Shown here piece by piece: positions 1,143 through 61,799 of a DNA stretch of 64,000 nucleotides (positions are counted from its first letter, which is position 1; every line of letters begins with the position of its first letter). This DNA comes from Branchiostoma floridae (lineage: Eukaryota), in NCBI RefSeq assembly GCF_015852565.1, contig NC_136205.1:3066707-3130706 (forward strand), written 5' to 3'. Under the pieces are notes generated by a model, which searched no databases, was not told the origin of the DNA, and saw only the letters and a program-made list of their open reading frames with translations. The translations under genes and the position numbers were made by a program.

Positions 1143-1609
1143 CTGTACAGTGATAAAGAAAGGGAGCATCAATCGGAAGTCTTACTAACTGATGTATCTT
1201 TCTTTTACAATGATGGCTGTAGAGCCCCTGGCTACGTTACCTGACTAGCACATAGTGTGTGTGTTTCTCTCTCTCTCTCTCTGGTTCTCCCCCTCTTTGT
1301 ATGTATATCTCTCTTTAAGTTAGTTCTTTTCTCTGCATGTGTCTTTCCCCCCTCTCTCTATCCCTCTGTTCTTTTATAACTGAAGTTAATCACCACTTCC
1401 GGACGCAATATTCTACTTTAGCGTATGTGTACACCGAAGGAACAGCTGTAATTTAAAGTTGCATTCCACCCGACGCCATATGAAAACTGCAAGTGCATCA
1501 TTATTATCAAATAATAAACAAAATTGATTGGTTAGAAGAATATTGTGTTTGAGTTTATAAAATTCATTACCACATTATTTGTGTATTATTAAAACATGTC
1601 TGTACGTAC

Positions 1610-1744
1610 TTTCACAATGCCTGCCGTAGTTGTTTTCGGGGCAGAAGCAGACGTAGGTCTCCGTGTTGCTGACGCATGTGCCACCGTTCTCACACGGGTT
1701 GGTCGAACAAAACTCCCGCATTGTCTCTTCGGTGTTTGAAGCGT
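1610..1744 (-). CDS. EGF-like domain exon (CSTNPCENGGTCVSNTETYVCFCPENNYGRHCE)
   Basis: It shows the 6-Cys EGF spacing. Minus-strand splice signals are present: ctatag|exon and exon|gtacgt. Confidence 0.65.
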
Positions 1745-2769
1745 CTATAGTAAGGAAAAGACTTATCATATAATAAGTGTCATCGACTAGATATACTGAT
1801 GATAGTCAAAGGGACTCATGGGCAACACATCCAGCATTAATCATGTTCTTCCAGTTGTCGTGACTAGATTGATGAAACTACAGAAAATAACAGTTTCTCC
1901 CATCCGTGAACAGTTTCATCAGGTTGGTACGTCACTGAATAAAGAGAATCTTTTTACACAACCAGTGCTTTATTCTCACCGACTGTATATACATATGTAA
2001 ATACTTTTCGTTTTGTGACCGCATCTGAACTGTGAGCAGCGACACCTGTCCTGCAGTACAATGTGAACCAGTCAGAATTGCCCTGAAGAAGGTGACAGAC
2101 GGTCACCGAAACGTCGGTGAGAATAAAGCACTGGTTGTGTAAAAAGAGTCTCTTTATTCAATAACAGTTTCTATTGCAGGAAAGGAGAGTTACAAAGATA
2201 TGTAACTGTTTCATGACACTTAAAAGTGTAATTGCTACCCTGGTGATCATGAAACGATTAGTTTCAGAGCAGTTCATATGTCAGCACCAAGGACAGTGGG
2301 TTTTATTTATGTCAATTTGCCTTTAGACGTCGGTGATAGTTCTAGAGTAACCAACTTTACTTCTGTAGTTTAATGGATTGATTTGTTGCTATAGATTGGC
2401 TATCGATGGCAAAATGGAGAAAATAAATTGTCAAAGAATCGAAATTGTAAATTATTTTGTGTATATTAAGCCCCTGTCACACAGAAGGAAAAAATCTATC
2501 GGTCTACGAATCTGCAAGCTCTACATTTACAGCAGTAACACGCTGTGTATTCTTTCCATCATTATGAAGATTTTTAAGAATCGGTCGATGCTCGTAGGTC
2601 AATGAGCGGAGTTGAATGTGTTTGTGAAGAATTTTCTGGTTAAAAATTCTGGCGTTTTTCAGAGCTTACAACCTTCGGGCGATCAACAAGTTCAGTCGAA
2701 GCTCTTCGTTTGTGTGACAGGGGCTAAAAAAGTAGTTGCCTCGCATTGACAAGAATAAAATGTACGTAC

Positions 2770-2940
2770 ACGATGGGAAGGTGGGAATCCTTAGTTCACA
2801 GTTCTCCCCGACAAACCCGCTGGTGCACCGACATGTGTAGGTCACCACGCCGACCTCACAGGTTCCGCCGTTCAGACATGGCAGTGACGCGCAGGGGTCG
2901 GTGGTGTTCGGAGACATCGCAGTAGTGTTAGCATCATCTG
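2770..2940 (-). CDS. EGF-like domain exon ([35 protein letters not shown])
   Basis: EGF Cys pattern in the minus-strand ORF 2666-3004. The low boundary is uncertain. Confidence 0.55.
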
Positions 2941-3590
2941 CTGGATGGATTGAAAAAATCAACATCAACGTACAATGTATATGTAACATGAAATTTACAC
3001 TCAAGTGTGGCTATGACAAAATCGTGTTCCGAAATACCAATGTAGTTAGCATCTTCTGTGAGATGGATTGAAAACCTTGTCAGCATCAACGTATATTTTA
3101 TATATGACGTTTGTACTCAAATATGGCTTTGACAAAATCGTATTCCGAGACACCACTGTAGATAAACATCATCTGTGGGATAGATGGAATATATCGTCAA
3201 CATAAACAACAACGTCAACGTACATATTTGTATAACATTTGCACTCAAATTTGGCTATGACAAAATCGTGTTCCGAGACACCACCGTAGAGTTAGCATCA
3301 TCTGTTGGTGAAGCAAAAACGTCGTTAACGCATGGCGTTTGCACTCACGTGATTATGACGTAGGAATTGTCCGCCATATTGGATGATTATACTTTTAAGC
3401 TGACGATATTTACTTTGCAAGTTATTACAGCTTCGCAATTTCAACGTCGTTACATATCAGACACCGGGAGCTATTTTCATTTATGTTATTATCATTATTT
3501 CGATGAAGCTATAAATGAATTAGAAATATACAGGATTTTGCACTATGTTGTTATTCAGGCAAGATCAGTAAACATTCCATGAATTCTTAC

Positions 3591-3708
3591 CTATTTCACA
3601 GTGTACGCCGTTGAAACCTTCCGGACAATCGCAGATGTACGTGCCATTTACCTCCAAACAGATACCACCGTTCAAACATGGATTAGGCGAACACTGTTCA
3701 GTCTCTGT
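3591..3708 (-). CDS. EGF-like domain exon ([33 protein letters not shown])
   Basis: EGF Cys pattern. The donor reverse complement cttac lies at 3586-3590. Confidence 0.6.
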
Positions 3709-3953
3709 GGAAAGTATAGCAAAAAAACGTTTTGATTGGATTTCATTAAACAATAAACAAAGCGAGTTAGCAATAACTATAATTGAATAAAAAGATTACC
3801 AAACGACAAATCCTAAATTAATGCCATGGTAAAGTGTAATCTTCAGACAAGATTAGCTCGGTGTCTGTGTAAGCTAAAAGGTACAAACTAAGACACTTCT
3901 TTCATTTCTCACATGGTTTTTACGGTGTGGAAATTAAATGTGACTTTCCTTAC

Positions 3954-4064
3954 CTTCGCAATTGCCCCCACGGTATCCCACTGGGCATGCGCAGTTATAA
4001 CCATTCAACAGGTCCTCACAAGAGCCGCCATTTTGACAAGGGTTCGAAACACATTCGTCTATTT
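3954..4064 (-). CDS. Calcium-binding EGF exon ([37 protein letters not shown])
   Basis: D-x-D-E-C cbEGF motif. The exon is 111 nt and flanked by cttac|...|ctg. Confidence 0.7.
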
Positions 4065-4163
4065 CTGCAAAACGGAAATAACAAATTAGAATATTCAGCA
4101 AAAATGGCAGAAATACTAAATTATGACCGAATCTAGGTCTGACAAAAATAACATTCTCCTCAC

Positions 4164-4277
4164 CTTCTTCACATGCATCTCCTCTGAATCCTTCTGGGCA
4201 TGCGCAGGTGAATAAGTTGACGTCATCATAACATGTGCCCCCATTCTGACACGGACTGGACTGGCACTCATCAACGT
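4164..4277 (-). CDS. Calcium-binding EGF exon ([37 protein letters not shown])
   Basis: 114-nt phase-1 exon with the cbEGF motif. Confidence 0.75.
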
Positions 4278-4404
4278 CTGTAAAGGTCAAAGTTCAACAC
4301 AAATAGTTATCACGCACTATATGTATTGTTGGTCACAGAACGGGTTAGTAGTACATAACTTTAGGTTAGAAAATGACATTTTTTTAGCTTTATTACTGTA
4401 CTAC

Positions 4405-4518
4405 CATTTTCGCAGTTGACTCCGTCAAAACCGACTGGACAGATACAGGTGTATGTCGCGACTAGGTCGTCACACGTGCCGCCATTTTGACAAGGACTGG
4501 ACTCACACTCGTTGATGT
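4405..4518 (-). CDS. Calcium-binding EGF exon ([37 protein letters not shown])
   Basis: 114-nt exon with the cbEGF motif. Confidence 0.75.
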
Positions 4519-4687
4519 CTGAAAACAAAACGGAATGGACCAGTATTACATTGAGCACATTTTAGGTACAACTTGTGTTACGAAAAAAAAAAACGATAAC
4601 AAAGATTATAACCAGAACGATTTAATTTCTTTCTGCGTAGATATTAAATGACTAAAACAACTATTAAAGGAAGACAATCTAACGCAC

Positions 4688-4801
4688 CTGTTTCACAGTT
4701 GACCCCCGCGTATCCAGGTGCGCAGGTACAGGTGTAGCTGTTCACCTGGTCCTGGCACGTGCCGCCATTTTGACATGGATTCGACTCACACTCGTTCCCT
4801 T
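4688..4801 (-). CDS. Calcium-binding EGF exon ([35 protein letters not shown])
   Basis: 114-nt exon with the EGF Cys pattern. It has no ORF of 60 aa or more in the provided track but has the same architecture as its neighbours. Confidence 0.7.
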
Positions 4802-4923
4802 CTGCAACAATGGAAATCAGAAAAACGATGACATAATTCTTAAATGATTTCCTTTACAAAAGATTCATCATACTTCAATAAAAATCATCATGAATTTCAG
4901 AGATGATAGAAGAGATATGGTAC

Positions 4924-5037
4924 CATCTTCGCATGTTTCTCCACTGTAACCATCTAGGCATGCGCAGGTGAATGAGTTGACGTCATCATAACATGTGCCC
5001 CCATTCTGACACGGACTGGACTGGCACTCATCAATGT
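4924..5037 (-). CDS. Calcium-binding EGF exon ([37 protein letters not shown])
   Basis: 114-nt exon. It is nearly identical to exon 4164-4277. Confidence 0.75.
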
Positions 5038-5165
5038 CTGGGTAGGTCAAAGTTCATCACAAAAAGTTATTTCGAAGCATGAAATCAACACTCAGTTTCA
5101 ATTGGAAAGTGGTAAGTAACAATAATTTACGAGTTCTATGAGTAATACTTTGAAATACATCTTAC

Positions 5166-5279
5166 TTTCTTCACATCTGTCGCCGGTAAATCCGTCTACG
5201 CATGCGCAAGTGAAAGAGTTGACTCCGTCAGAGCAGCTTCCACCGTTTTGACACGGGCTGGACTTGCACTCATCAATGT
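5166..5279 (-). CDS. Calcium-binding EGF exon ([37 protein letters not shown])
   Basis: 114-nt exon. It belongs to a near-identical tandem exon-intron unit of about 235 bp. Confidence 0.75.
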
Positions 5280-5400
5280 CTGCAAAAACGTTTAACGTTG
5301 ATTATTTGAAGTAGCTAAACACAACACGATTGTTCGTGAAGTAACAAGTGAAGAAACTCCTTCCGTTGTACTTGAGTATGTGCACAAAAGAACGTCTTAC

Positions 5401-5514
5401 TTTCTTCACAGCTGTCGCCGGTAAATCCGTCTACACATGCGCAAGTGAAAAAGTTGACACCATCTGAGCAGCTTCCGCCATTTTGACAAGGGCTGGATTC
5501 ACACTCATCGATGT
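5401..5514 (-). CDS. Calcium-binding EGF exon ([27 protein letters not shown]...CE)
   Basis: 114-nt exon in a tandem unit. Confidence 0.75.
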
Positions 5515-5633
5515 CTGAAAAAGATAGCGTTTATTATTTGAATCAACCAATCAAAGAGCTCAATATTTAGGAAAAGGTAAATGTCATTAAGTTCTTAAAT
5601 TGATTTTAATTTACAAATTGAAATAAGTCTTAC

Positions 5634-5747
5634 TTTCTTCACATCTTTCGCCGGTAAAGCCATCTGCACATGTGCAGGTATATGAGTTTGCACCGTCCGT
5701 ACAGATGCCGCCATTTTGACACGGGTTGGACTCACATTCGTCAATGT
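5634..5747 (-). CDS. Calcium-binding EGF exon ([37 protein letters not shown])
   Basis: 114-nt exon in a tandem unit. Confidence 0.75.
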
Positions 5748-5880
5748 CTGTAAAACGTTAACGTTCATTATTTGAATCAGCCAATCACAACACGATTGTT
5801 CGTGGAATAGCAAATAAAAGAAACTCCAATAATTGAGCTGTACTTATTTTGGACTTGTGTATGTGCGACAAAAATCTTAC

Positions 5881-5994
5881 TTTCTTCACATCTGTCGCCG
5901 GTAAACCCATCCACGCATGCGCAAGTGAAAGAGTTGATGCCGTCAGAGCACCTACCGCCATTTTGACATGGGCTAGACTCGCACTCGTCGATAT
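5881..5994 (-). CDS. Calcium-binding EGF exon ([37 protein letters not shown])
   Basis: 114-nt exon in a tandem unit. Confidence 0.75.
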
Positions 5995-6102
5995 CTGAAA
6001 AGATAACGTTCATTTTTTAAACTAACCAATCAGAGAACTCAATATTCAGGAAAAAGCAAGTATCATAAACCTAATAAATTCATTTATGTATCGAAGTCTT
6101 AC

Positions 6103-6216
6103 TTTCTTCACATCTGTCACCGGTAAAGCCATCTGCGCATGTGCAGGTATATTTGTTGGCTCCATCCGTGCAGCTTCCGCCATTTTGACACGGGCTGGAC
6201 TCACACTCGTCAATGT
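6103..6216 (-). CDS. Calcium-binding EGF exon ([37 protein letters not shown])
   Basis: 114-nt exon in a tandem unit. Confidence 0.75.
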
Positions 6217-6454
6217 CTGAATAAAAAGATAACGTTCAATATTTGAATCAACCAATCAAAACAGGTAATACGTCGACCACAGTTATACATCCAGGTAATA
6301 GGATACACCGAATAGCGGTTACTCAAATTCAAATGCAAACAACTGGAAAATCATGTCCAGTTGTTTCAGTAACTGCTATTTGGCACCAAACGTGTATAGT
6401 TAGGGGATGGCAAGAATCATGAACTTGGTAAATTGTACTTCAACAATATCTTAC

Positions 6455-6568
6455 TTTCTTCGCAGAAGTCGCCCACAAACCCATCTGCGCATGTGCAGGT
6501 GTAAGAGTTTACTCCATCCGTACAGGTACCGCCATTTCGACACGGGCTGGACTCGCATTCGTCAACGT
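6455..6568 (-). CDS. Calcium-binding EGF exon ([37 protein letters not shown])
   Basis: 114-nt exon. Confidence 0.7.
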
Positions 6569-6825
6569 CTGAGTAAACATAGTAGAAAAATTGGTCAACG
6601 TTTGAACAATCACTTGGAAATATGTTTGGACACCATTAGGCTAAGTGTAAATTAGTTGTCATTGGTAAAACTGCACATTATAAAAGTGCTTATAATTTTA
6701 GAAAGATTTGTATTCGCCAAGGTCTAAGTAAATATAGCACATTTGACAACGTTTGGACAAACATTGAGAATGAACAAGTTTATAACATACTAAGTATGTT
6801 TGGACACCGTTAGAATTAGCTTAAA

Positions 6826-7036
6826 TACTGTAAATGCAGAAATGTTCGCGGTGGATTAATATTCGCGGTTTTCGCGGTGCCCACTCCAACGCGAAATTAA
6901 AACTACCGCGAACAGTTTCCTATTATGGTATTAGACTGCAGTCTCTCGTGTTACCGCGAAATTAAAACGACCGCGAAAAGTCCTTTTTCCCCGCTACTGC
7001 GAAATTAAATCCCCGCGAACTTAAATGCATTTACAG
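6826..7036. mobile_element. Tc1/mariner-type MITE (~210 bp, TIR CTGTAAATGCAGAAATGTTCGCGG, TA flanks), copy 2
   Basis: ctgtaaatgcagaaatgttcgcgg…ccgcgaacttaaatgcatttacag, with related copies at 1-57 and 41613-41815. Confidence 0.7.
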
Positions 7037-7116
7037 TATGTTGTCATTGGTCTCACCATGCAATAAAATGCGAATAAACGTAGAGAGAAATTTTGATAAA
7101 CGTTAAAGATTTTTAC

Positions 7117-7230
7117 CTTCCTCACACCTGTCGCCAATGAAACCGTCTGGGCATGCGCAGGTGTAAGAGTTGACGGCATCGCTACATATGCCTCTATTTT
7201 CACACGGATCGGATTCGCACTCGTCAATTT
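7117..7230 (-). CDS. Calcium-binding EGF exon ([37 protein letters not shown])
   Basis: 114-nt exon. Confidence 0.7.
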
Positions 7231-7551
7231 CTGGAACGAGAGGAATTAAAAGCTACTTCATAATTTCGCAATAACATGTGAAAACAAGTAAGTAAAACTA
7301 ATTGTCAAAGTGTCAAATACGTACCTAATATTTTACCTCACTGATTGAGAAACCTTTTATTTGGGTCACTTTTAGTCAAGGTCACCGTACAAGTTGATAG
7401 GTCATCTATGTTGAACAGGGTGGAAGACAAAGATTTGATATATACTATCATAATGATACTGGCAATCTCTTGTTGTGACGAAAACATGCATCTTTACGCT
7501 TGGTAATTTTTGTTCTTAATTTTGTATCAAATGAAGAATTCTGCACAGTAC

Positions 7552-7665
7552 CTTGTTCACAGTTGTCTCCTCTATACCCGTCAGCACAGTCACAGACGTA
7601 TGAGTTGACTCCGTCTATACAGGCACCGCCATTCTGGCACGGACTCGACTCGCATTCGTCAACAT
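7552..7665 (-). CDS. Calcium-binding EGF exon ([37 protein letters not shown])
   Basis: 114-nt exon. The donor is gtactg on the minus strand. Confidence 0.7.
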
Positions 7666-8055
7666 CTGTTTGTAACAATAAAAGTTTTGTTAAACAAAAT
7701 CAAATTTAAAGAATGGTGTTGCTTTCGCGTTACTCAACAGCTTGGGCACCATTGACATTTTGTTTTAGTATATTTCATTTTTTCTAGATTCATGTGTATA
7801 AAGACTGACCAGGGCTTTAGAGCCTTTCTCTTTCCCACACCCGATTGCTGTTTATTACATCTTCATCTATATACTGGTAAAGACCAAAATGCCCAGTAGT
7901 ACTAAACAGTTGAACCGCCTAGAAACACATAAAGGCAAAATTCCCGTCGCTAACTATGGAAGCAGCAGTACCCTTAAGCTTAATACATGTATCATCTTTT
8001 AGAAATAATTTCTTTCTTGAATATTAGATTATCGAAGACAAAGCACATCACTTAC

Positions 8056-8181
8056 CTGTCTCACAAACTTGCCCTATGAAGCCTGCCGGACATGCGCAGA
8101 CAAAACAAGTATCTTCATCGGCCGAGTAGGTGCAGGTCCCACCATTTTCGCAAGGGGTAGGGTCACAATAGTCCCGTTTCT
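8056..8181 (-). CDS. EGF-like exon (RDYCDPTPCENGGTCTYSADEDTCFVCACPAGFIGQVCE)
   Basis: 126-nt exon with the EGF Cys pattern. Confidence 0.6.
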
Positions 8182-8614
8182 CTGTCGAGATCAAAGTAGA
8201 GATAAAAGAAGCCTTTAAAATCTAGTATGTATCATCTGTGGCTGATTATATTCATAAAAGGCAATGTTTTGATAAAAGAAAGTATGGCATGAAAAAGGCA
8301 TCTCGTTATAATATGGCGTCAGTCTGACTTTCTTGCTCATGTACTGTCTACTGTGTTTGATACGTCAATGAAAGTTAGACATCCAGGTAATAAGATAGAC
8401 CAAAAAAGCGGTTACTCAAGCAACTGGAAATGATTTTGGAAACGGTCAGACGTTTCAGACAGCATCGCTATCTTTCGACATTGACGCTGAGGAAAGCTGT
8501 TTGAAGAGAAGGTCTTATATCCTACCTATGACTTGAGTTAAACTTAGTCTCAGTTAGTGCGTTGGATCATTACAGATTACCGTCTGCACCCCTGTCAATC
8601 ATCTGATGACGTAC

Positions 8615-8753
8615 CTTCTTGGCAGGTCTGCCCCTCCCAGCCACACGCGCAAGTGCTGTCGGGACATTCTCCGGTGAAGCGGTTGCAGACGGCGTCATCA
8701 CGACAGTGGCAGGTAGAGGTGCATCCGGCACCAAACGTTCCCGCGCTGCACGC
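8615..8753 (-). CDS. Laminin-type EGF-like exon (CSAGTFGAGCTSTCHCRDDAVCNRFTGECPDSTCACGWEGQTC)
   Basis: It shows the 8-Cys laminin-EGF-like spacing in the minus-strand ORF 8595-8834. Confidence 0.5.
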
Positions 8754-9465
8754 TACAGAATCACATAAGTCAACAATTTTACACTGAAACCTGAAGATCT
8801 GCTGAAGTACTAAACACAGCCGATAGGGGTCCATAATCGAAACGTCTAGATGTACCTAAACTAACATTACTTATCAAATGTATTAAAAGATGCATTCATA
8901 ACTTCTCGAGTAAGTGCTCAAAAACGAACCATTCTTGGTAAGGTACGTAAAGTGCTCTGTATACATGGAAACATGTTTTGGCATTCTTCACTTTCTTTCC
9001 CTGTGGTAAATATCACACATTGTACAGTTCTTTTTGAAGGTTAGGTCAATTTTGACTTTTTGAACAAGTGATAAAATATTGGCTCCCCCAGTGCTGCTGT
9101 TCAACTCACTATGTAAGGTGCAGTTGTCTACTGAAAACTACACAGAACGTTTAAAAAAGGAAATTGAATTGAACAGCAGGGACTACAAACCCAGACGGGG
9201 GACGATACAGACTACCTGGCATAATTGACCCGTCGTTGACGTCACGCTAACGTTCAGGCCACGTGACATCAAGCTATTTTAAATTGCGAGGACTGATCGA
9301 AAGCTTGTGCTTTACTTTGTGTGCAAAATATATAAATAAAATTAAATATAGAATATTAAGTGTTTACAATGATTTGAAATATTCTATTGACAAAGGAAAA
9401 CTGGTCATTACGCATGTAAACAATTACCAGGCTATCATATAGACAAGAAAGGCAGTGTCCCGTAC

Positions 9466-9618
9466 CTGTGTCACATCTCAGACCCCGGAAGCCGGTGTTA
9501 CAGGAGCAGCCGTACGGGTCGGGGACACAGAACTGGAGTTCTGCGCATGCGTCAGGGCTGTCAACGCCATTGTCGCATTTGTGGGAACACGCCAGTCCGA
9601 ACCGGTTACTTCCGCAGG
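9466..9618 (-). CDS. EGF/laminin-EGF-like exon (SACGSNRFGLACSHKCDNG...CSCNTGFRGLRCDTG)
   Basis: Cys-rich ORF 9356-9643. Minus-strand splice sites are cctcag|exon and exon|gtacgg. Confidence 0.5.
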
Positions 9619-10003
9619 CTGAGGAGGGGGTGGGGTGAGTCATTCGTTTGTTTGTTTGTTTGTTTGTTTATTTGGTTTATTCACACACAATGTCGGAATA
9701 CTTCACAGTTGAGTGGTCTAAAAAGAAACTACTGATATGTAAAGCATCAGTAACAGCAGGCCCTAACCTGGAACCCACAGGGCAAACAAAAGAGTGGAAG
9801 GCATAAGAACAGCTGGAGAAGGGACACCGAGGAAGAGATGAGGAGCATCAGTAACAGCTGGCACGACCTGAGAAGGAAGGCACAGAGACGTGTACAGTGG
9901 AGGGCAATCATCGGTGGCCTATACTCCAACTGGGGCAAAGGGCCCAAGTAAGTAAAATATGTAAAAAAACAAACAAAATAAAAAATCGAACTTCGTGTCT
10001 TAC

Positions 10004-10135
10004 GTATTTCGCAGCGGTCTCCCCGAAAGCCCGGTGGACAGATGCACTCCCCCGTGTCGGAGTGGCACATCCCACCGTGGAGGCAGTTCGGACACCCCCG
10101 GCTACATCCGGGACCCCACCGGTTTTCTTGACATC
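10004..10135 (-). CDS. EGF-like exon (GCQENRWGPGCSRGCPNCLHGGMCHSDTGECICPPGFRGDRCE)
   Basis: Cys-rich ORF 9747-10163. The exon is 132 nt. Confidence 0.55.
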
Positions 10136-10618
10136 CTAAAGAAAAAATGACAGGTGTTAACACTCACGTGACTGTGTCTTAGGTACTGCCCGCCATGTTG
10201 GATGGTTAAAGCTGGAAGTTGCTAGGTAACTTTGAATTATCATATGCAGACGTCAGGTAATTATTACATCATATCATACAAATGCACATTTACAGGTATC
10301 CAGAAGGGAATCAACCAACATGGCAGACAGTAACATACCAAAACTATTTTTTTCAGAATGCTCTGGGGACAAGAACTGACATTCTAAGTGAATGTATGAT
10401 AAACGTTGTTTTTGAAGTCTCCATTGATCAATCGACCCATCAATCAATCAGTCAATAAATTAATCAATCAATTTACTTAAAGTTTTCTACTAACTTCTTG
10501 ATAAATTGTAGTTTACTAACAAGTCAGATTCAAGGATGTATTCGTGTGCTTTACAGAATATTGTGAAAAGGCAGTTAAAGACAATGGTCAGTGCAGCAAA
10601 CTGATAAGTTTAGTGTAC

Positions 10619-21077: not shown

Positions 21078-21440
21078 ATCTATCGGAGGTCAGTACCAAG
21101 GCTTTAGCCAGCTCGAATTTTTTTTTCCGTCAGCCAATTACAATCGTCGCGAAAACCGCAAAAATTAATTAGAAGGACTGAACTGAGACCTTGAAAAATG
21201 GGTTTTAATGAGATTATCGTATGCGAAAGGGCGCCGACACACATTGCCAACAATCATAACAATAGCAAAACAAACAGTGTGTGGCTTTTACGGCCGTGGA
21301 CGGCGTCCCCAAGCCGCCTGTAGCTTCCACGAAGCATTTTTGTCCGTCAAGGTTGACGGATTGGTTTTAAAATTTTTCTGTCACAGGCAGCAAATTTCCG
21401 TCAATTGACGGAAAAACGGACGCTGGCTAGACCCCTGGTC
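21078..21440. mobile_element. hAT-like MITE (~360 bp), copy 1, with an 8-bp TSD of GTCAGTAC/GTCGGTAC
   Basis: TIR CAAGGCTTTAGCCAGC…GCTGGCTAGACCCCTG. The internal sequence is about 90% identical to copy 2. Confidence 0.7.
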
Positions 21441-27071: not shown

Positions 27072-27430
27072 ACAGGGCTCTAGCCAGCTCGACATTTTTT
27101 TTCCGTCAGCCAATTCCCAATGTCGCGAAAACACTATTCCAGGAGTTAGAGAGACTGAACTGAGACCTTAAAAAACGGGTTTTAATGAGATTATCGTATG
27201 CAAAAGGGCACCGACACACAATATCAACAATCATAACAATAGCAAAACAAACAGTGTGTGGCTTTTACGGCCGTGGACGGCGTCCCCAAGCAGCCTGTAG
27301 CTTCCACCAAGGAGCTTTTATCAGATTTTTGTCCGTCAAAGTTGACGGATTGGTTTTAAAATTTTTCCGTCACACGCAGCAAATTTCCGTCAATTGACGG
27401 AAAAACGGACGCTGGCTAGAGCCCTGGTCA
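27072..27430. mobile_element. hAT-like MITE, copy 2, inserted exactly at the donor of PARP4 exon 8. Its 8-bp TSD GTCAGGTA duplicates the CAG|GTA junction.
   Basis: TIR CAGGGCTCTAGCCAGC…GCTGGCTAGAGCCCTG. The flanks are ATGTGTCAGGTA|…|GTCAGGTAAAAAG. Confidence 0.75.
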
Positions 27431-28195: not shown

Positions 28196-28375
28196 GGGAT
28201 GAGTGAGAGAGTGAGTGAGAGAGTGAGTGAGTGAGTGAGTGAGTGAGTGAGTGAGTGAGTGAGTGAGTGAGTGAGTGAGTGAGTGAGAGTGAGTGAGTGA
28301 GTGAGTGAGTGAGTGAGTGAGTGAGTGAGTGAGTGAGTGAGTGAGTGAGTGAGTGAGAGAGTGAGGTAGTGAGTG
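28196..28375. repeat. (GAGT)n/(GAGTGAGT)n microsatellite starting 20 bp downstream of the PARP4 exon 9 donor
   Basis: gagtgagagagtgagtgag…(gagtgagt)n is visible. Confidence 0.9.
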
Positions 28376-28439
28376 AGAGTGTTTGAGCGGTTGAAAGTTT
28401 TAAATTCTATTTAATAGGCTACATACATTGTAAGCTTAT

Positions 28440-29362: not shown

Positions 29363-29391
29363 GCACAGAACTTTGTTGGCATCTTGTCAAG
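29363..29391 (+). CDS. PARP4: PARP4 exon 11 (29-nt micro-exon)
   Basis: ttttacag|AQNFVGILS(R)|gtaggc. Matches human PVQNIVGILCRG. It is needed to keep the reading phase. Confidence 0.7.
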
Positions 29392-29826: not shown

Positions 29827-29922
29827 AGGTCTGCTGCTCCCCAAGGTCGTTGTTGATGACTTCGGCGGAACCAGAACTGACGCAGGCATGCTGGGACATG
29901 GCATCTACTTCTCAGATGCAAG
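29827..29922 (+). CDS. PARP4: PARP4 exon 12 (PARP catalytic domain)
   Basis: ttgttcag|GLLLPKVVVDDFGGTRTDAGMLGHGIYFSDA|gtaagg. Matches human RGLLLPKVVEDRGVQRTDVGNLGSGIYFSDS. Confidence 0.9.
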
Positions 29923-30301
29923 GTAAGGGTCGTGTGGCGCAATTAGAGGGTGTTTGATTGATGAAACTCTTGTTTTCCCAGTTTTCCGTAAGCCAGTGAA
30001 AATGTTTGGTACATGGTGCTGAAATGCCGTCCATCAAAATTTGAAGACTTAGTCAGTTACTACTGGTGGCTGCTGGTCCCAGAAAAGTTATTTCCTGATG
30101 TCAGTTTCCTGCTATATGTATGTAGTACATGTATGACCTAGGAGCCAGTGGGGAAAATACTGAAGACTTTATCAAAAAGAAATTTGCAGTAATAATGACT
30201 AAAACTGGAAATTAACATAAACTAAAAAAAGAATATTTCATTGAGGCATGACACTATTGATTTCTTGTTTCTTGCTATTCAACAATGGTCCATTCTTACA
30301 G

Positions 30302-30420
30302 CACCAGTGCAAAATACTCCTCTCCCAACAAGTCCAGAGGTACCAGATACATGGTAGTGAGTGAGGTAGCCTTGGGGAAGTGTAAGGATGTGTATCAACA
30401 CGGCATCGATTCCTAAATGT
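30302..30420 (+). pseudogene. Tandem partial duplicate (copy 1) of PARP4 exon 13: acceptor plus the first ~115 nt, ending in an in-frame TAA
   Basis: ttcttacag|CACCAGTGCAAAATACTCCTCTCCCAACAAGTCCAGAGGTACCAGATACATGG... repeats the exon-13 start. It then diverges at ...GTGTATCAACACGGCATCGATTCCTAA. Confidence 0.7.
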
Positions 30421-30453
30421 TTCTAACATTTCAATCATGGTCCTTTCTTACAG

Positions 30454-30577
30454 CACCAGTGCAGCATACTCCTCTCCCAACAAGTCCAGAGGTACCAGAT
30501 ACATGGTAGTGAGTGAGGTAGCCTTGGGGAAGTGTAAGGATGTGTATCAACACGGCATCGATTCCTAAATGTTTCTA
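30454..30577 (+). pseudogene. Tandem partial duplicate (copy 2) of PARP4 exon 13, a 158-bp unit
   Basis: Second near-identical copy of the unit. The authentic exon is the third copy, at 30606-30789. Confidence 0.7.
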
Positions 30578-30605
30578 ACATTTCAATCATGGTCCTTTCT
30601 TACAG

Positions 30606-30789
30606 CACCAGTGCAGCATACTCCTCTCCCAACAAGTCCAGAGGTACCAGATACATGGTAGTGAGTGAGGTAGCCTTGGGGAAGTGTAAGGATGTGTACA
30701 AACACGACACCAGCCTGACACAACCACCTCAGGGGTACAACAGTGTGCATGGAGTCAAGGGGACTGATGAGATCACTTCAGAGTTTAAG
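30606..30789 (+). CDS. PARP4: PARP4 exon 13 (PARP catalytic domain)
   Basis: tcttacag|STSAAYSSPNKSRGTRYMVVSEVALGKCKDVYKHDTSLTQPPQGYNSVHGVKGTDEITSEFK|gtagga. Matches human LSTSIKYSHPGETDGTRLLLICDVALGKCMDLHEKDFSLTEAPPGYDSVHGV. Confidence 0.9.
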
Positions 30790-31019
30790 GTAGGAATATT
30801 CTAAATGAGAAACGAACTCTTCTCCAACTCCAAAGTATTGAATTTTTGTCTGAATAACTCAGTCGTCTTAATCTGGAGAGAATCTCATTTTCATTTACAA
30901 CTGTCTTGAGAAGCAAGAAGAAGTTGAACCTTTACATACTAGACTAAGTATACTTTAGACTTTGTTGTCTTAGTTTTATATCACATCCTTACACACATTG
31001 CACTTAGAATCCCTAGGAA

Positions 31020-32600
31020 CTGCATTCTATTCACCTTGTTTCCAATGACATAATTTCCGAAAACCAACATGCGTATAGAAAATCACACTCTACAGCTAGT
31101 GCCCTTATACAAATGTCTGACTACTGGTTGGGGGAGATAGATAAAGGGAATTTGATTGGCGCCGTTATGCTAGATTTTAGCGCGGCATTTGATGTCATTA
31201 ACCACGATATTTGTTTAGCCAAGCTTAAGAGCTATGGTTTTGAGGAATCTGCAATCAAGTGGGTACAGAGTTATCTTGGCAACAGGAAACAAGCTGTATT
31301 CGTTAACGGTAGTTTTTCCTCATATAAAGAATCCAGGTGCGGCGTTCCCCAAGGCAGCTGCCTGGGTCCATTGCTTTTCTCTATATTTGTCAATGATCTC
31401 CCCGCATTTACAAATAGTATAGTAGTCATGTACGCTGATGATTCAACGCCCTCAGCATCGGCTCCCACTGTCGCGAAATTGAAATACAAATTGCAGACTG
31501 ACTTGGAGCGAATCTGGAATTGGGTACAAACTAATCATCTTGTTCTCAATATTGGAAAAACTAAATCAATCATGATGGGTACGCAACAAAAACTAAAACG
31601 TAATCCCAAATTAGAACTAAGAATAGATGGAACAGACATTACACATGTAGAACAGGCTGAACTGTTAGGTCTCACTATAGACCAACGTCTCACATGGGGA
31701 TCGCATATTGACAAAACGAAGAATAAAATGGCAGGCATACTAGCCACAATAAGACGACACAGGAAGTACTTCACAAAAAGTATATTGAGATCTGTTATTC
31801 AGGCTCTGGTTTTGTCACACATTGACTACGGCTCAGTGCTGCTATCCTCTGCACCACAGACACACATAGATGGTCTTCAGGTGGTCCAGAATCGCGCTGC
31901 TCGCCTGGCCACAAACAAGCCCTTTGACACCAACCTGGAAGACCTACACATGCAGTTAAAGTGGCAAACCGTTAAAGAAAGACTCTTCACAAATACTGTA
32001 TGTACATTCCACAAAATTGTTAAGGAAAGGCAACCCCAATGCATCTTCAAGCAATTACAAACAATTCAATCCACACATGAGCATCACACGAGGCTGTCTA
32101 CTAGAGGAGCATTCACTCAATCAAAACCCAAAACAAACGCTAAAACAAGGACATTTGGCTACAGATGCATCAAAACCTATAACACATTGCCAAACACAAC
32201 GACATCATACAACAACATTGAGTTCAAATCTAGGATAAAAGAGCTTGCGAAAACACGAGACAAAAGACAACCCCTGAGCACATGGTGGTAATGATTTTTA
32301 TATTTCAGTATATCTAAGTTATATATTTATGTTGTGTTATTAGTACACTTTTGATTGGATTGTGTTTCAATCAATTAAGTTAACTTCTTCTGCTATTCAT
32401 TATTTGTTATGTATGATCACTTCTTTATTTTGACCTCTGACCTCTGCTTATTATTTTGCTTATTATTTTACGCTAATTATCCGCTTTTGATGTTAAGTTG
32501 TTTCTTTTTCATTTCATGTATTTTATTTATTCTTATTATTATGACTCCAGGAAGAGTAGTGGCATGATTTTATGATGTACACTAATGGAGATCGCAACAA
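31020..32600 (+). mobile_element. 5'-truncated non-LTR (LINE) retrotransposon fragment with a reverse-transcriptase ORF, lying in the PARP4 intron between exons 13 and 14
   Basis: ORF 31113-32291 carries RT motifs: AVMLDFSAAFDVINHD, CGVPQGSCLGPLLF, YADD, and a thumb-like C-terminus. Confidence 0.8.
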
Positions 32601-32793: not shown

Positions 32794-32837
32794 GATGATG
32801 AATATGTCATCTACAATGTTCAGCAGCAAAAAATGAG
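32794..32837 (+). CDS. PARP4: PARP4 exon 14
   Basis: ctgttacag|DDEYVIYNVQQQKM(R)|gtatgt. Matches human DDEFVVYKTNQVKMKY. Confidence 0.75.
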
Positions 32838-33033
32838 GTATGTGAAACGAATTCCCATAATTTTGTATCTTGTGTTGTTTATAACTGTGTGGCAGAAAGT
32901 AGAAGTGGAGATTGTCACTGCCCTAACATCAATTCTCATAATTTAACTGGGTGCCATCAATACCCCCAAATGAGAAAAAGACATGAATTCAATGTAATTT
33001 AAAGAGATACAGACATTACAGTAGAAGCCAGTC

Positions 33034-37924: not shown

Positions 37925-38095
37925 TGGAATATGATTCTATTTAACTTTCTTTGGTGCTGATTGGCTATCACACGATGCGGTCTCATTTCAAATGATTCTA
38001 TTTACCTTTCCTTGGTGCTGATTGGCAATCACATGAGGCATTCTCATTTGAAATAATTTTATTTACCTTTCATTGGTGCTGTTTTGCAGATTTGT
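37925..38095. repeat. Minisatellite of ~62-bp units, each carrying CTGATTGGCT (inverted CCAAT / NF-Y-like box), block 1
   Basis: Three units of the form ctttggtgctgattggctatcacacgatgcggtctcatttcaaatgattctatttaa. Confidence 0.7.
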
Positions 38096-38290
38096 AACGG
38101 AATACAAAATAGTCTGAAGCTTCTGTACGTTGGTGCAGTCGCTGTAGAAGAGCAATTTGAAAGAGTGCTCAACAAATTTCATCGATGAAATATCAAACGT
38201 TTGATAGGATATAGCCCTTATTCATGTCCTTGTTAGGTATTGTGATGTAACTAGTTTTTCTTTATAAACTTTACAAATTCCATTTTGTAG

Positions 38291-38364
38291 GATATGAGGA
38301 ACTGTTTGCTGTGAGCCAGTCCAGAACCAAGTCCAATGTCTCTAAGGCTGAAACCTTTATCCAG
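38291..38364 (+). CDS. PARP4: PARP4 exon 22 (vWA)
   Basis: ttttgtag|(G)YEELFAVSQSRTKSNVSKAETFIQ|gtatag. Matches human GYKELFSYPKHITSNTMAAEFIMS. Confidence 0.75.
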
Positions 38365-38469
38365 GTATAGTCTTCATCTCATTGTTATTGAGCATTATAA
38401 CTTATCCCATGTAACTGTCTTTCAAGGTTTATTAGGCAAGAAAACAGTATACTGTTCCTTTTTGTTTGC

Positions 38470-39150
38470 CATTCTAATGAAATCTTGTTTCATCTGTCCT
38501 TGGTGCTGATTGGCTGTTGCATAGGTAGTCTTCTCCTATGTAATGATTATAAACTTATCTTACCTTGGTGCTTATTGGCTGTGACATAAAGAAGTCCTCT
38601 TTCAAATGATTCTATTTCATCTTTCCTTGGTGCTGATTGGCTATCACATAAGGTGGTCTCATTTCAAATGATTCTATTTCATCTTAAGTTGGGTTCTGAT
38701 TGGCTGTGACATTAAGCAGTCTCCTTTCAAATGATTATATTCTATCTCTCCTTGGTGCTGATTGGCTATTACATGAGCAGTCTCATTTCAAATAATTTTG
38801 TTTTATTTAGTTAATGCTGATGGCTTGGAATTTAGGCAGTCTTCTTTCAGATGGTTCTATTTTATTTCTCCTTGGTGCTGATTGGCTATCACATGAAACA
38901 ATCTCATTTCAAATGATTCTATTTCATCCTACGTTGGTGCCAATTGACTATCACATGAGGCGGTCTCATTTCAAATGATTATATTTCATCTTACATTTTA
39001 CTGATTGGCTGGAACTTGAGGCAGTTTCTTTCGAGTGATTTTATCTAGCTTTCCTTGGTTCTGATTTGCTATCATCTCATGCAATGTTATTAAAACTAGT
39101 CTATTTTATCTCTCCTTGGTGCTGATATGCTATCACGTTGTGTAGTCTTT
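38470..39150. repeat. Same CCAAT-containing minisatellite, block 2 (~11 units), in the PARP4 intron between exons 22 and 23
   Basis: Repeated tccttggtgctgattggctatcacatgag…tctcatttcaaatgattctatttcatc units with variants. Confidence 0.75.
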
Positions 39151-43785: not shown

Positions 43786-44187
43786 AATAAAGTGCTTGAT
43801 GGACAGATCACAGAAAAGGCCATTGAACACAGCTTGGAGTTCTACACCACTGCAGTGGAGACTGCAAAAAGGGAGCTTCCCCCAACCCATCCAACAGTGT
43901 TGCAGTCACAGCTCTCTTTGGCAATGTTTTATCACAACAAATTGAATATGCAGGACAAGGCCTGCCTGGTTGCAAAGGCTGCCTTTGACGATGCGATCGC
44001 GGAGTTGGATACTCTGAGCAAGGAAAGCTACAAGGACTCGACCTTGGTGATGCAGCAGTTGAGAGACAACTTGACATTGTGGTCTGCTGAGGACGGGGAA
44101 GAAGAGAAAAAAGCCAACGAAAAGAAAAAGGTCCTTATTCCTAGTGTCAACCATAGCTCACTTTGGCTAATCAACCTTCTCGGATGA
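43786..44187 (+). CDS. Intact ORF encoding a 14-3-3 protein C-terminal half (helices 7-9, including 14-3-3 signature 2). It is embedded between PARP4 exons 29 and 30. Its status is unresolved: it could be an exonized module, a nested-gene exon or a young pseudogene fragment.
   Basis: [109 protein letters not shown]. Compare 14-3-3 epsilon [42 protein letters not shown]...[41 protein letters not shown]. The frame is open from the tttctag| acceptor-like site at 43785 to the TGA at 44185. It is not in phase with the exon-29 donor when obvious splice sites are used. Confidence 0.5.
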
Positions 44188-44194
44188 AGCCCAT

Positions 44195-44575
44195 CTTACA
44201 TACCCAACCATGGCCTCGCGACCTTCTCCAGACCATGGTTGGGAGTTAAGCCCCTGTCACACATAGCCGACCATGCCCTCCCAACCTTCTTCAGACCATG
44301 GTCAGGAGTTAAGCCCTTGTCTTACATACCTGACCATGGCCTCCCAACCTTCTCCAGACCATGGTCAGGAGTTAAGCCCTTGTCTTACATACCTGACCAT
44401 GGCCTCCCAACCTTCTCCAGACCATGGTCAGGAGTTAAGCCCTTGTCTTACATACCTGACCATGGCCTCCCAACCTTCTCCAGACCATGGTTGGGAGTTA
44501 AGCCCGTCTTACATACCCAACCATGGCCTCGCGACCTTCTCCAGACCATGGTTGGGAGTGAGACCATCAGTAATT
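44195..44575. repeat. Tandem array (~6 copies) of a 63-bp (3n) unit with internal palindromes (catacctgaccatgg…ccatggtcagg). It is open in two reading frames.
   Basis: ccatggtcaggagttaagcccttgtcttacatacctgaccatggcctcccaaccttctccaga repeated. ORFs 44239-44613 and 44273-44632 are open only because of the 3n periodicity. Confidence 0.7.
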
Positions 44576-61244: not shown

Positions 61245-61799
61245 ATAGTTTTTTCAAAGTTGCAGATAGACTGTTGATATCATTAAAAGTAGTAAAATAT
61301 GATTGCATGATCTTGGGCCTCCATCCATAGCTAAAGATATAGTTAAAGGTGTTGATATTTTAGGATGTACACTTAGCTATTGTCCTCGTGTTCGATACAA
61401 GTGCAGCATTTTGTCGATTAGGTTATACCTGGCAACTTCCTCATCATTTTCAGTTTTTCTAAGGTAGCACAACGTACAATTATATGCATTCAGTTCACTT
61501 TAGGAAATAAAACATGTGAGCCAGATTTGCCTTGTCCACTTCTGTACACTTCGGGGCTACCTGTGTGTTAGCTGGTCTCAGTTTTCTGTCCAAACAATGC
61601 TGCAGTGTAATGCACAATGTAGATCCTGTATGCTCGACGTATGGGGCAATTGACTTGTTTTTGTTTTTTTAAACATGGTACTGGTACTGTTATAATGCAG
61701 CAAAGTACTAGTACTATTTTAATGACCCAATTTACAGCTGTCGTCCACAAGTCCCATAGACTTTTGTTGCTTTGGACTGGAAAATGTATAAATCCTCAC

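What the first reader, a model, noticed from the sequence alone, without database searches (positions are those of the whole stretch)
30290..30789. Three tandem copies of the PARP catalytic exon 13 acceptor and 5' portion
A 158-bp unit consisting of the polypyrimidine tract, AG, and the first ~115 nt of the exon (…STSAAYSSPNKSRGTRYMVVSEVALGKCKDVY) occurs three times head-to-tail. Only the third copy continues into the rest of the exon. Copies 1 and 2 run into an in-frame TAA. Both upstream copies keep perfect acceptors, so they are strong decoy 3' splice sites directly in front of a catalytic-domain exon. They may drive NMD-coupled regulation. Alternatively, this could be a collapsed or expanded assembly artefact.
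Basis: seen in the sequence. Interest (0 to 1): 0.55.

Follow-up and report, generated by a model that had tools for sequence, protein, structure and literature searches.

The report
Triplicated splice acceptor in PARP4 gene
In an invertebrate vault-PARP (PARP4) gene, a 152-bp piece spanning the end of an intron and the start of a catalytic-domain exon is present three times in a row, so two dead-end copies of the splice acceptor sit just before the real one; it is a real but ordinary kind of small tandem duplication, and nothing shows that it regulates the gene.

Summary
A head-to-tail array with a period of 152 nt (not 158) lies at about 30257-30711. It holds three copies of "intron tail + AG + first 93-105 nt of the exon". 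Only the third copy (exon 30606-30789) continues into the rest of the exon. Copies 1 and 2 run into an in-frame TAA. The gene is a PARP4 orthologue that looks otherwise intact. The exon lies between the exons carrying the catalytic Tyr and Glu. Four related animals have the same intron, in the same phase, with a single acceptor, so the array is lineage-specific.

The array has two age layers. The 59-nt junction segment is about 20-25% diverged from its parental sequences. The cores differ at 2 of 93 nt, or not at all. This points to an older duplication, then homogenisation of the core, then a brand-new third copy. So at least two copies cannot be an assembly artefact. The third could be a miscount.

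Acceptor 1 has lost the CTAAC branch point and part of its pyrimidine tract. Acceptor 2 is an exact copy of the real acceptor.

Best reading: the upstream copies are intronised by-products. Productive splicing uses acceptor 3, and leaky use of the decoys would give NMD substrates. Evolved NMD-coupled regulation is unsupported. Interest is low to moderate.

The parts
29827..29922 (+). Upstream PARP4 exon (…GLLLPKVVVDDFGGTRTDAGMLGHGIYFSDA), which carries the catalytic-triad Tyr in GIYF. It ends in phase 2 (AG|) with a strong donor, AAG|GTAAGG, at 29923.
   Evidence: Translation; 75-91% amino-acid identity to the same exon in relatives L001-L004, L007, L009 and L010; donor context.
29923..30301 (+). 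Intron up to acceptor 1, 379 nt. This matches the ancestral intron size (about 368 nt in relative L004).
30253..30301 (+). Original intron tail ('tail-O') with acceptor 1 (…ccattcttacAG). Its signals are degraded: CTTGC where copies 2 and 3 have CTAAC, a pyrimidine fraction of 0.59 and a longest pyrimidine run of 5.
30302..30453 (+). Repeat unit 1. It consists of decoy exon core 1 (30302-30394; carries AA at 30312-13, giving Lys, the probable ancestral state) and junction segment J (30395-30453; in-frame TAA at 30414-30416; CTAAC branch point at 30423-30427; acceptor 2 AG at 30452-53).
30454..30605 (+). Repeat unit 2. It consists of decoy exon core 2 (30454-30546, identical to the real exon) and a second, identical copy of J (30547-30605; TAA at 30566-30568; CTAAC at 30575-30579; acceptor 3 AG at 30604-05).
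30606..30789 (+). The real exon, 184 nt (STSAAYSSPNKSRGTRYMVVSEVALGKCKDVYKHDTSLTQPPQGYNSVHGVKGTDEITSEFK). Its first 93 nt form repeat copy 3. The donor AAG|GTAGGA is at 30790.
   Evidence: PF00644 match of the spliced product; conserved in relatives.
32794..32838 (+). Next exon (DDEYVIYNVQQQKMR), which carries the catalytic Glu. It is reached in frame only from acceptor 3.

Best explanation
This is a real, lineage-specific tandem triplication of a 3' splice junction, consisting of about 47-49 nt of intron tail plus about 103-105 nt of exon, inside an otherwise intact PARP4 gene. It arose in steps. First, an older duplication of the junction took place, and its flanks have since diverged by about 20-25%. 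Second, the 93-110 nt core was homogenised by gene conversion or unequal crossing-over. Third, a very recent unequal exchange or slippage added the third copy, which has no substitutions of its own. Functionally, the two upstream copies are now part of the intron. The full-length enzyme is made only when the spliceosome joins the donor at 29923 to acceptor 3 (30604-05). Three things favour that choice: the CTAAC branch point at -28, the better pyrimidine tract, and the proximity of the real downstream donor (a 184-nt exon, against 336 or 488 nt from acceptors 2 or 1). Any use of acceptor 1 or 2 gives a TAA after 37 codons, many exons upstream of the end of the gene, so the transcript would be an NMD substrate or would encode a truncated protein lacking the catalytic Glu. 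The decoys are most likely tolerated by-products of minisatellite-type mutation that, at most, cost some expression. They are probably not an evolved regulatory device. Shown here: the structure, the reading frames, the single-copy state in relatives, and the differences in signals. Inferred: the order of events, which acceptor is used, and NMD.
For: Array structure and identities. The junction J can be reconstructed as exon continuation plus intron tail, with 12 mismatches and a 3-nt indel in 56-59 nt, whereas the cores differ at 2 of 93 nt (Fisher p about 1e-4). No other copy of the unit or of J exists in the window, so this is not a transposable element. Same intron position and phase with a single acceptor in L004, L007, L009 and L010. 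Relatives L007, L009 and L010 read STSAKYS, so the Lys codon of copy 1 is probably ancestral and copy 1 keeps an older 5' end. Only acceptor 3 gives the conserved open reading frame among single-acceptor routes. The acceptor-3 product matches PF00644 (E 4.5e-30), while the acceptor-1 product stops at profile position 126 of 199. The acceptor signals are unequal (acceptor 1: pyrimidine fraction 0.59, run of 5, no CTAAC; acceptors 2 and 3: 0.71, run of 9, CTAAC at -28; mean of 20 other acceptors of this gene 0.72). Flanking PARP4 exons are open and conserved from the start Met at 21542 through BRCT, PARP_reg, PARP, VIT and vWA. Other minisatellites lie in the same gene (periods 61-63 and 125-182 nt), so this mutational process is active locally.
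Against: No transcript or read data for this species could be reached, so acceptor usage, NMD and copy number are all unverified. Acceptor 2 is identical to the real acceptor over 152 nt, so substantial mis-splicing, and therefore a real fitness cost or a real regulatory effect, cannot be excluded. The core-versus-flank contrast could also reflect selection on the decoy copies, which would argue for a function. The age estimate rests on short flanks (about 12 + 44 nt).
Confidence: 0.6

Rival explanations
1. Evolved unproductive-splicing (AS-NMD) control. The decoy acceptors are maintained to divert a tunable fraction of PARP4 pre-mRNA into PTC-containing transcripts, and copy number sets the dose.
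For: Each decoy leads to an in-frame TAA far upstream of the last exon junction. The two-copy state appears to have persisted long enough for its flanks to diverge by about 20-25%, while the cores stayed nearly identical. Decoy 2 has full-strength signals.
Against: Four relatives have a single acceptor, so there is no conservation. Acceptor 1, the older decoy, has lost its branch-point consensus and part of its pyrimidine tract, which is the opposite of maintenance. The strong decoy is brand-new, with no substitutions. Core identity is explained more simply by gene conversion or unequal exchange in a tandem array. From general knowledge, conserved AS-NMD switches are typical of splicing-factor genes and are usually deeply conserved.
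Confidence: 0.1
2. Assembly miscount. The genome really has two copies (or a different number), and the third exact unit was introduced when the assembler resolved a 233-nt exact repeat.
For: The last duplication left no substitutions. The array contains a 233-nt exact self-match at offset 152, which a short-read or poorly polished assembly could miscount. No independent assembly of the species was found.
Against: The window has no Ns. It resolves a 45-copy TGAG microsatellite and a 10-copy 62-nt minisatellite, which suggests long-read contiguity, and long reads span 456 nt easily. The AA/GC dinucleotide and the distinct tail-O and exon continuation anchor both ends. An artefact cannot create the diverged J junction, so at least two copies are real.
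Confidence: 0.15
3. Hypomorphic or null allele, or rescue through new internal introns. Splicing goes mainly to acceptor 1 or 2. The allele is then either a loss-of-function or reduced-function variant caught in the reference individual, or it is rescued by AG|GT proto-splice sites in the cores (Rogers/Hellsten-type intron birth), giving a Lys-containing product.
For: Acceptor 1 sits at the ancestral distance from the donor (379 nt, against about 368 nt in L004), and acceptor 2 is a perfect copy. Two AG|GT pairs restore the exact reading frame in silico: donor 30340 or 30492 (GAG|GTACCA) to the acceptor ending at 30643, and donor 30366 or 30518 (GAG|GTAGCC) to the acceptor ending at 30669. Hellsten et al. 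showed that duplicated AGGT sites can be spliced at a low level (PMC3265369).
Against: Those donors lack the +4 to +6 consensus. Their acceptors lack a usable branch point and pyrimidine tract, and they lie downstream of a much better AG. The older two-copy state has apparently survived for a long time in a gene whose other exons are all intact, which argues against a null allele.
Confidence: 0.1

Closest known systems
Small intragenic tandem duplications spanning an exon-intron boundary, and intron gain or intron sliding by tandem duplication (Rogers model; Hellsten et al. 2011, PMC3265369; Lehmann et al. 2010, PMC2891723)
   Same: A short head-to-tail duplication inside a gene leaves redundant splice signals. 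The redundant copy can be removed as intron, so the protein is unchanged. NMD is thought to buffer the unspliced or mis-spliced forms. The size (152 nt) is in the range of common natural duplications.
   Different: In the published cases the duplicated segment lies within an exon, and a new intron is born between AG|GT proto-splice sites. Here the segment includes a complete, pre-existing 3' splice site with its branch point and pyrimidine tract. No new intron is needed, because the old intron is simply lengthened by 304 nt and gains two internal pseudo-acceptors. This case also has three copies and shows evidence of homogenisation.
Decoy splice sites and decoy exons (Parra et al. 2018, bioRxiv 10.1101/258897 / PMC6097662, and PMC7373989; also the caspase-2 In100 decoy 3' acceptor, cited from my own knowledge)
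   Same: Intronic, non-productive 3' splice-site-like elements lie close to a real exon. They could engage the spliceosome and lower the yield of productive mRNA.
   Different: Known decoys were defined functionally, by reporter or antisense experiments, and are often conserved. They act by promoting intron retention or exon skipping. Here nothing functional has been tested, the relatives lack the element, and the expected outcome is use of an alternative 3' site with a PTC.
Alternative 3' splice sites coupled to NMD (unproductive splicing)
   Same: Choosing an upstream acceptor adds sequence containing an in-frame stop far from the last exon junction.
   Different: Regulated cases are typically conserved and lie in genes for RNA-binding proteins. 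This case is lineage-specific and lies in PARP4. Its alternative sites are exact paralogues of the constitutive site, not independent sites.
Tandemly duplicated, mutually exclusive exons
   Same: Tandem copies of exon sequence, each with its own acceptor.
   Different: The copies here are truncated: they lack the 3' half of the exon and any 5' splice site in a compatible phase. They therefore cannot substitute for the real exon. No selector- or docking-type complementarity was found.
Minisatellites undergoing concerted evolution by unequal exchange
   Same: A period near 150 nt, interior units that are nearly identical, more diverged array edges, and other minisatellites nearby.
   Different: There are only three units, and the unit happens to contain a functional splice junction of a conserved catalytic exon.

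Membership tests
Tandem duplication of a 3' splice junction (structural class) | Head-to-tail copies with a constant period and high identity | tested here: met
   Period 152, 2.8-3 copies, 97% matches, and a 233-nt exact self-match.
Tandem duplication of a 3' splice junction (structural class) | Each copy contains the intron tail, the AG and the 5' part of the exon, and the junction between copies can be derived from the two parental ends | tested here: met
   J equals about 10-13 nt of exon continuation joined to the intron tail from about -45, with 12 mismatches and a 3-nt indel.
Tandem duplication of a 3' splice junction (structural class) | Single copy at the orthologous site in relatives (a derived state) | tested here: met
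   L004, L007, L009 and L010 have the same intron position and phase, with one acceptor and one exon copy.
Regulated unproductive splicing (AS-NMD) | The alternative site introduces a PTC more than about 50 nt upstream of the last exon-exon junction | tested here: met
   TAA at 30414-16 and 30566-68, with more than 15 coding exons downstream.
Regulated unproductive splicing (AS-NMD) | The alternative junctions are actually used, and the transcripts are stabilised when NMD is blocked | not testable with these tools
   No transcript data could be reached for this species.
Regulated unproductive splicing (AS-NMD) | The alternative site is conserved across species | tested here: not met
   It is absent from all four relatives that retain the intron. 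No congener was available.
Intron birth by duplication of an AG|GT proto-splice site | The duplicated unit contains AG|GT, so that removing whole periods restores the reading frame | tested here: met
   Two such pairs restore the exact length (donors 30340/30492 and 30366/30518).
Intron birth by duplication of an AG|GT proto-splice site | The proto-splice sites have usable donor, branch-point and pyrimidine-tract signals, and they are spliced | tested here: inconclusive
   The donors are GTACCA and GTAGCC. The acceptors follow a purine-rich or short pyrimidine stretch and lie downstream of a much better AG. Actual splicing could not be tested.
Mutually exclusive tandem exons | Complete exon copies, each with a 3' and a 5' splice site in the same phase and of similar length | tested here: not met
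   Copies 1 and 2 lack the 3' 80-90 nt of the exon. No GT in the unit gives an in-frame stand-alone exon with good signals.
Decoy exon / decoy 3' splice site | An intronic, non-productive site that binds splicing factors and changes the outcome at the neighbouring real site | not testable with these tools
   Only the sequence potential can be shown.
PARP4 (vault PARP) gene | Domain order BRCT, PARP regulatory, PARP catalytic, VIT, vWA | tested here: met
   Pfam on window-encoded pieces: BRCT_2 (weak, 26.6 bits against a cutoff of 27.3), PARP_reg (5e-10) and PARP (4.5e-30). The VIT/VIT_2/VWA query retrieves proteins named PARP4. The exon order is collinear with relatives. The H-Y-E residues can be read directly in FHSS, GIYF and DDEYVIY.
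PARP4 (vault PARP) gene | C-terminal MVP-interaction domain | not tested
   Only a weak PF26156 mark on relative L009. The window's 794-aa C-terminal ORF has no Pfam hit.

The most novel reading that the evidence does not exclude
The array is a maintained 'dosage throttle' whose strength depends on copy number. Gene conversion or selection keeps the decoy cores identical to the real exon so that they compete fully for the spliceosome. Variation in copy number between individuals (1, 2, 3 or more) would then set how much PARP4 pre-mRNA is shunted into NMD. This would be a minisatellite acting as a heritable rheostat on vault-PARP expression.
Probability: 0.08. Interest if true: 0.55.

Novelty: new member of a known kind. 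Interest (0 to 1): 0.25.

Why it matters
If the structure is real, it is a clean natural example of what happens when a complete 3' splice site is duplicated in tandem in front of an essential catalytic exon. The gene survives because the last copy can still be used. The oldest decoy shows decay of exactly the signals that would make it compete (branch point and pyrimidine tract). The newest decoy is still a perfect competitor. That makes the locus a convenient natural minigene for asking how spliceosomes choose among identical acceptors (proximity, exon definition, branch-point strength), and for studying how small junction duplications are tolerated and then silenced. For annotation, it warns that gene predictors may pick acceptor 1 or 2 and call a truncated or frameshifted PARP4. 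It does not open a new biological principle.

Tried and rejected
(1) Independent evidence for copy number and usage. The protein search with the spliced catalytic peptide found no same-species sequence; the best exon hits were 76-90% identical and covered the upstream exon only. Exact look-ups of the 71-aa real-exon ORF and the 43-aa decoy ORF found nothing.

(2) Transposable element or dispersed repeat. Rejected, because neither the unit nor J occurs elsewhere in the window.

(3) ncRNA, tRNA/SINE or an antisense gene in the array. Rejected, with no Rfam match at E<=1, no tRNA, and only short repeat-derived ORFs on the minus strand.

(4) Mutually exclusive or cassette use of the copies. Rejected, because the copies are truncated. 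Routes using the better cryptic donors (GTGAGT, GTAAGG) are never in frame with the canonical acceptor, and the in-frame routes need poor donors and would duplicate 10-30 residues inside the catalytic fold.

(5) Selector- or docking-type RNA pairing that would choose one acceptor. Only 10-18-nt imperfect inverted matches were found. The one that touches the acceptor (30014-30024) pairs equally with all three copies.

(6) Pseudogene. Rejected, because all mapped exons are open, collinear and conserved.

(7) Whole-array assembly artefact or haplotype merge. Rejected for the two-copy state, because an exon-to-intron junction (J) cannot arise from allelic variation and has itself diverged.

(8) Verifying 'exon 13'. 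The linker at 22.4-25.3 kb shows no detectable conservation with relatives, so the exons there could not be counted.

(9) Species identification. Only the nearest named hits are available (Crassostrea gigas PARP4-like 68%, Solemya velum 65%). The third protein search was not spent on this.

Full report
OBSERVATION. The repeat is real. Tandem Repeats Finder reports a single array at 30278-30706 with period 152, 2.8 copies, 97% matches and no indels. The direct-repeat finder gives three copies spaced 152 nt apart. In the register of the splice acceptor, the motif TTCTTACAG occurs at 30293-30301, 30445-30453 and 30597-30605, so exon-type sequence begins at 30302, 30454 and 30606. Unit 1 (30302-30453) and unit 2 (30454-30605) differ only at two adjacent bases: 30312-13 is AA and 30464-65 is GC. 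Unit 2 and the real exon are identical for 93 nt and then diverge. The longest exact self-match at offset 152 is 233 nt, so chance is not an issue. The peptide it quoted belongs to copies 2 and 3; copy 1 reads STSAKYSS.

ANATOMY. Each 152-nt unit has two parts. The first is a 93-nt core identical to the start of the exon. The second is a 59-nt junction segment, J, which is identical in its two copies (30395-30453 and 30547-30605). J is best reconstructed as about 10-13 nt of exon continuation joined to the last 45 nt or so of the intron, but with 12 mismatches and a 3-nt indel. J contains an in-frame TAA (30414-16 and 30566-68), a consensus branch-point motif CTAAC whose branch A lies 28 nt before the next exon start (30426 and 30578), a 9-nt pyrimidine run, and the AG. 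The original intron tail in front of copy 1 differs from the tail inside J at 7 of the last 36 positions. It has CTTGC in place of CTAAC, its tract is interrupted (ccAttcttacag), its pyrimidine fraction is 0.59 and its longest pyrimidine run is 5. The mean pyrimidine fraction for 20 other acceptors of this gene is 0.72. Neither the unit nor J occurs elsewhere in the window. The region holds no Rfam family, no tRNA and no plausible antisense gene.

GENE CONTEXT. The + strand from about 21.5 to 48.7 kb encodes a PARP4 (vault PARP) orthologue. The start is MGVFRGC… at 21542. BRCT, PARP_reg and PARP catalytic pieces score in Pfam, although BRCT_2 falls just under its cut-off. The VIT and vWA exons retrieve proteins named PARP4; the closest named hits are Crassostrea gigas at 68% and Solemya velum at 65%. 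The exon order is collinear with three related genomic loci. The organism is therefore an invertebrate, probably a mollusc or another lophotrochozoan, but it was not identified. The local gene model is coherent: …FHSSQ | AQNFVGILS (29363-29391) | (R)GLLLPK…GIYFSDA (29827-29922; donor AAG|GTAAGG) | target exon 30606-30789 (donor AAG|GTAGGA) | DDEYVIYNVQQQKMR (32794-32838). The target exon lies between the exon with the catalytic Tyr and the exon with the catalytic Glu. With acceptor 3 the product matches PF00644 at E = 4.5e-30. With acceptor 1 the product ends at profile position 126 of 199, before the Glu. The label 'exon 13' is plausible but unverified, because at least 9 conserved coding exons precede this one and the linker at 22.4-25.3 kb could not be resolved.

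COMPARISON WITH RELATIVES. The species itself is absent from the searchable collections. Four related animals were recovered with the orthologous junction: L004 (a Logan contig), L007 (JGI), and L009 and L010 (ENA genome contigs). All four have the intron at the same position and phase (…AG|gt … ag|T/C AC(C/T) AGT…) with one acceptor and one exon copy, and Tandem Repeats Finder, run on L004 and L005, found no array at the junction. L004's intron is about 368 nt, matching the 379 nt from the donor to acceptor 1 here, so the extra 304 nt is an insertion on the exon side. L007, L009 and L010 read STSAKYS. The AAA (Lys) of copy 1 is therefore probably ancestral, and the GCA (Ala) of copies 2 and 3 is probably derived. 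Those three relatives also have an extra short intron after EVALGRVS.

HISTORY (inference). Divergence is strongly uneven. There are 2 differences in 93 nt between cores 1 and 2, and none between core 2 and the real exon. In contrast, J differs from its parental sequences at 12 of 56 aligned positions plus an indel (Fisher p = 1.6e-4). From position +13 of unit 1 onward, 140 consecutive nucleotides are identical to unit 2. If the flanks reflect roughly neutral divergence of an old duplication, 81 or more identical core positions are not expected (0.8^81 is about 1e-8, and even 0.9^81 is about 2e-4). The simplest history has three steps. An older duplication covered about -49 to +105. The core was then homogenised by gene conversion or unequal exchange, as is usual in tandem arrays whose edges escape homogenisation. 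A very recent unequal exchange or slippage then created the third unit and has accumulated no substitutions since. This pattern is exactly what results from duplicating the segment that runs from core position 13 of the first copy to position 12 of the second. Other minisatellites in the same gene (61-63 nt and 125-182 nt periods) show that this mutational process is active locally. One consequence follows: an assembler cannot invent a diverged exon-to-intron junction, so at least two copies are real. Only three versus two remains open.

CONSEQUENCES FOR SPLICING (inference from sequence). I enumerated every AG as an acceptor, and every GT…AG pair as an additional internal intron. Among single-acceptor routes, only 30606 reproduces the conserved protein. 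Acceptors 1 and 2 end in TAA after …DVYQHGIDS, many exons before the end of the gene, so such transcripts should be NMD substrates by the standard 50-55-nt rule. The reading frame can be rescued from acceptor 1 or 2 only through two AG|GT pairs inside the cores: GAG|GTACCA … CCAGAG|, and GAG|GTAGCC … GTGAGTGAG|. Their signals are poor, and their acceptors lie downstream of a far better AG. Three features favour acceptor 3: its consensus branch point, its better pyrimidine tract (both shared with acceptor 2), and its pairing with the true donor across a 184-nt exon, against 336 or 488 nt for acceptors 2 and 1. Acceptor 1, the older decoy, looks weakened. Of the tail differences, the branch-point change and a net gain of two pyrimidines all favour the downstream sites, which fits decay of, or selection against, a harmful competitor. 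Acceptor 2 is indistinguishable from acceptor 3 over -59 to +93, so it is the serious potential competitor. It is also the newest element. No inverted repeat could mask one copy selectively.

VERDICT ON INTERPRETATIONS. Its alternative of 'NMD-coupled regulation' is possible but unsupported: there is no conservation, the old decoy is decaying, and the strong decoy is brand-new. Its alternative of an artefact can apply only to the third copy. The best explanation (confidence about 0.6) is a tolerated, stepwise junction triplication whose upstream copies are intronised by-products. The rivals are an assembly miscount of the third unit (0.15), evolved AS-NMD control (0.10), and a hypomorphic allele or AG|GT rescue (0.10).

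RELATION TO KNOWN PHENOMENA. The closest precedents are intragenic tandem duplications that leave redundant splice signals. These cover intron birth at duplicated AG|GT sites (Hellsten et al. 2011, PMC3265369) and new intron positions arising by tandem duplication, with NMD buffering the unspliced forms (Lehmann et al. 2010, PMC2891723). This case differs in that a complete pre-existing 3' splice site is duplicated, so the old intron is merely extended. Functionally defined decoy splice sites and decoy exons (PMC7373989 and bioRxiv 10.1101/258897) are a possible analogy, but membership cannot be tested without RNA data. Mutually exclusive tandem exons are excluded because the copies are truncated. 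This is a new instance of a known kind, not a new kind.

LIMITS. All statements about which acceptor is used, about NMD, about the order and age of events, and about copy number in the real genome are inferences.

Noticed in passing
window 43843-44097 (+); relatives L007 3648-3878, L009 13549-13638, L010 14881-15027: A 14-3-3 C-terminal half (PF00244, E=6e-26, profile 146-223 of 223; …[27 protein letters not shown]) lies inside the PARP4 gene order, downstream of vWA, and is conserved at the same place in three relatives. In L007 it lies in one uninterrupted ORF with vWA, so it appears to be fused in frame to PARP4 in this clade.
   Followed up: partly
L007 4065-4268 (ORF residues 635-702): The same long PARP4 ORF of relative L007 also contains an actin N-terminal fragment (PF00022, E=6e-13; …[40 protein letters not shown]…). 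No counterpart was detected in the window by tblastn. This may be exon shuffling or a chimeric contig.
   Followed up: partly
window 31017-32288 (+): A 424-aa ORF with a reverse-transcriptase domain (PF00078, E=5.6e-22) lies in the intron immediately downstream of the target exon, in the same orientation as PARP4. It is a retrotransposon fragment, of non-LTR type judging by its motifs.
   Followed up: partly
window 44194-44559 (+): A 63-nt tandem repeat (5.8 copies, 91% matches) is open in frame (…SYIPDHGLPTFSRPWSGVKPL… repeated). It lies just after the 14-3-3-like exon and has no Pfam hit. It could be coding or intronic.
   Followed up: no
window 37931-39136 (+): A minisatellite of 61-62-nt units (about 10 copies, 70-86% matches, with higher-order periods of 125 and 182 nt) lies in the PARP4 intron after the first vWA exon.
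   Followed up: no
window 28200-28377: A (TGAG)45 microsatellite lies in the PARP4 intron just after the PARP_reg exon.
   Followed up: no
window 21187-21405 and 27164-27394 (+): Two PARP4 introns share a dispersed repeat with nearly the same ORF (…WVLMRLSYAKG(R/H)RHT…TIITIAKQTVCGFYGRGRRPQAACSFH…). It is probably a transposable-element family.
   Followed up: no
window 60021-61253 (-): A 411-aa single-exon ORF matches 'Family 4 glycosyltransferase in conflict systems' (PF20706, E=3.4e-77) over its full length. This is an immune- or conflict-associated GT4 domain in an animal genome. The neighbouring ORF at 62808-63752 (-), which looked ZU5-like by eye, has no Pfam hit.
   Followed up: partly
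window about 1500-10200 (-): A large gene made of EGF-like repeats (…[38 protein letters not shown]…) contains a 233-235-nt exon-plus-intron periodicity at 5160-6263 (4.7 copies, 69-71% matches), which indicates old tandem exon duplication.
   Followed up: no
window 30415-30431 and 30567-30583: The branch-point region inside J (AAATGTTTCTAACATTT) is an imperfect palindrome (7-bp AT-rich stem with a 3-nt loop). The original intron tail lacks it. This is probably chance, but it overlaps the CTAAC branch point.
   Followed up: no
L007 1234-1308; L009 and L010 equivalent positions: Relatives with compact genes have an extra short intron (about 75 nt in L007) that splits the orthologous exon after …EVALGRVS. 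This is close to, but not at, the right-hand breakpoint of the duplication in the window.
   Followed up: partly
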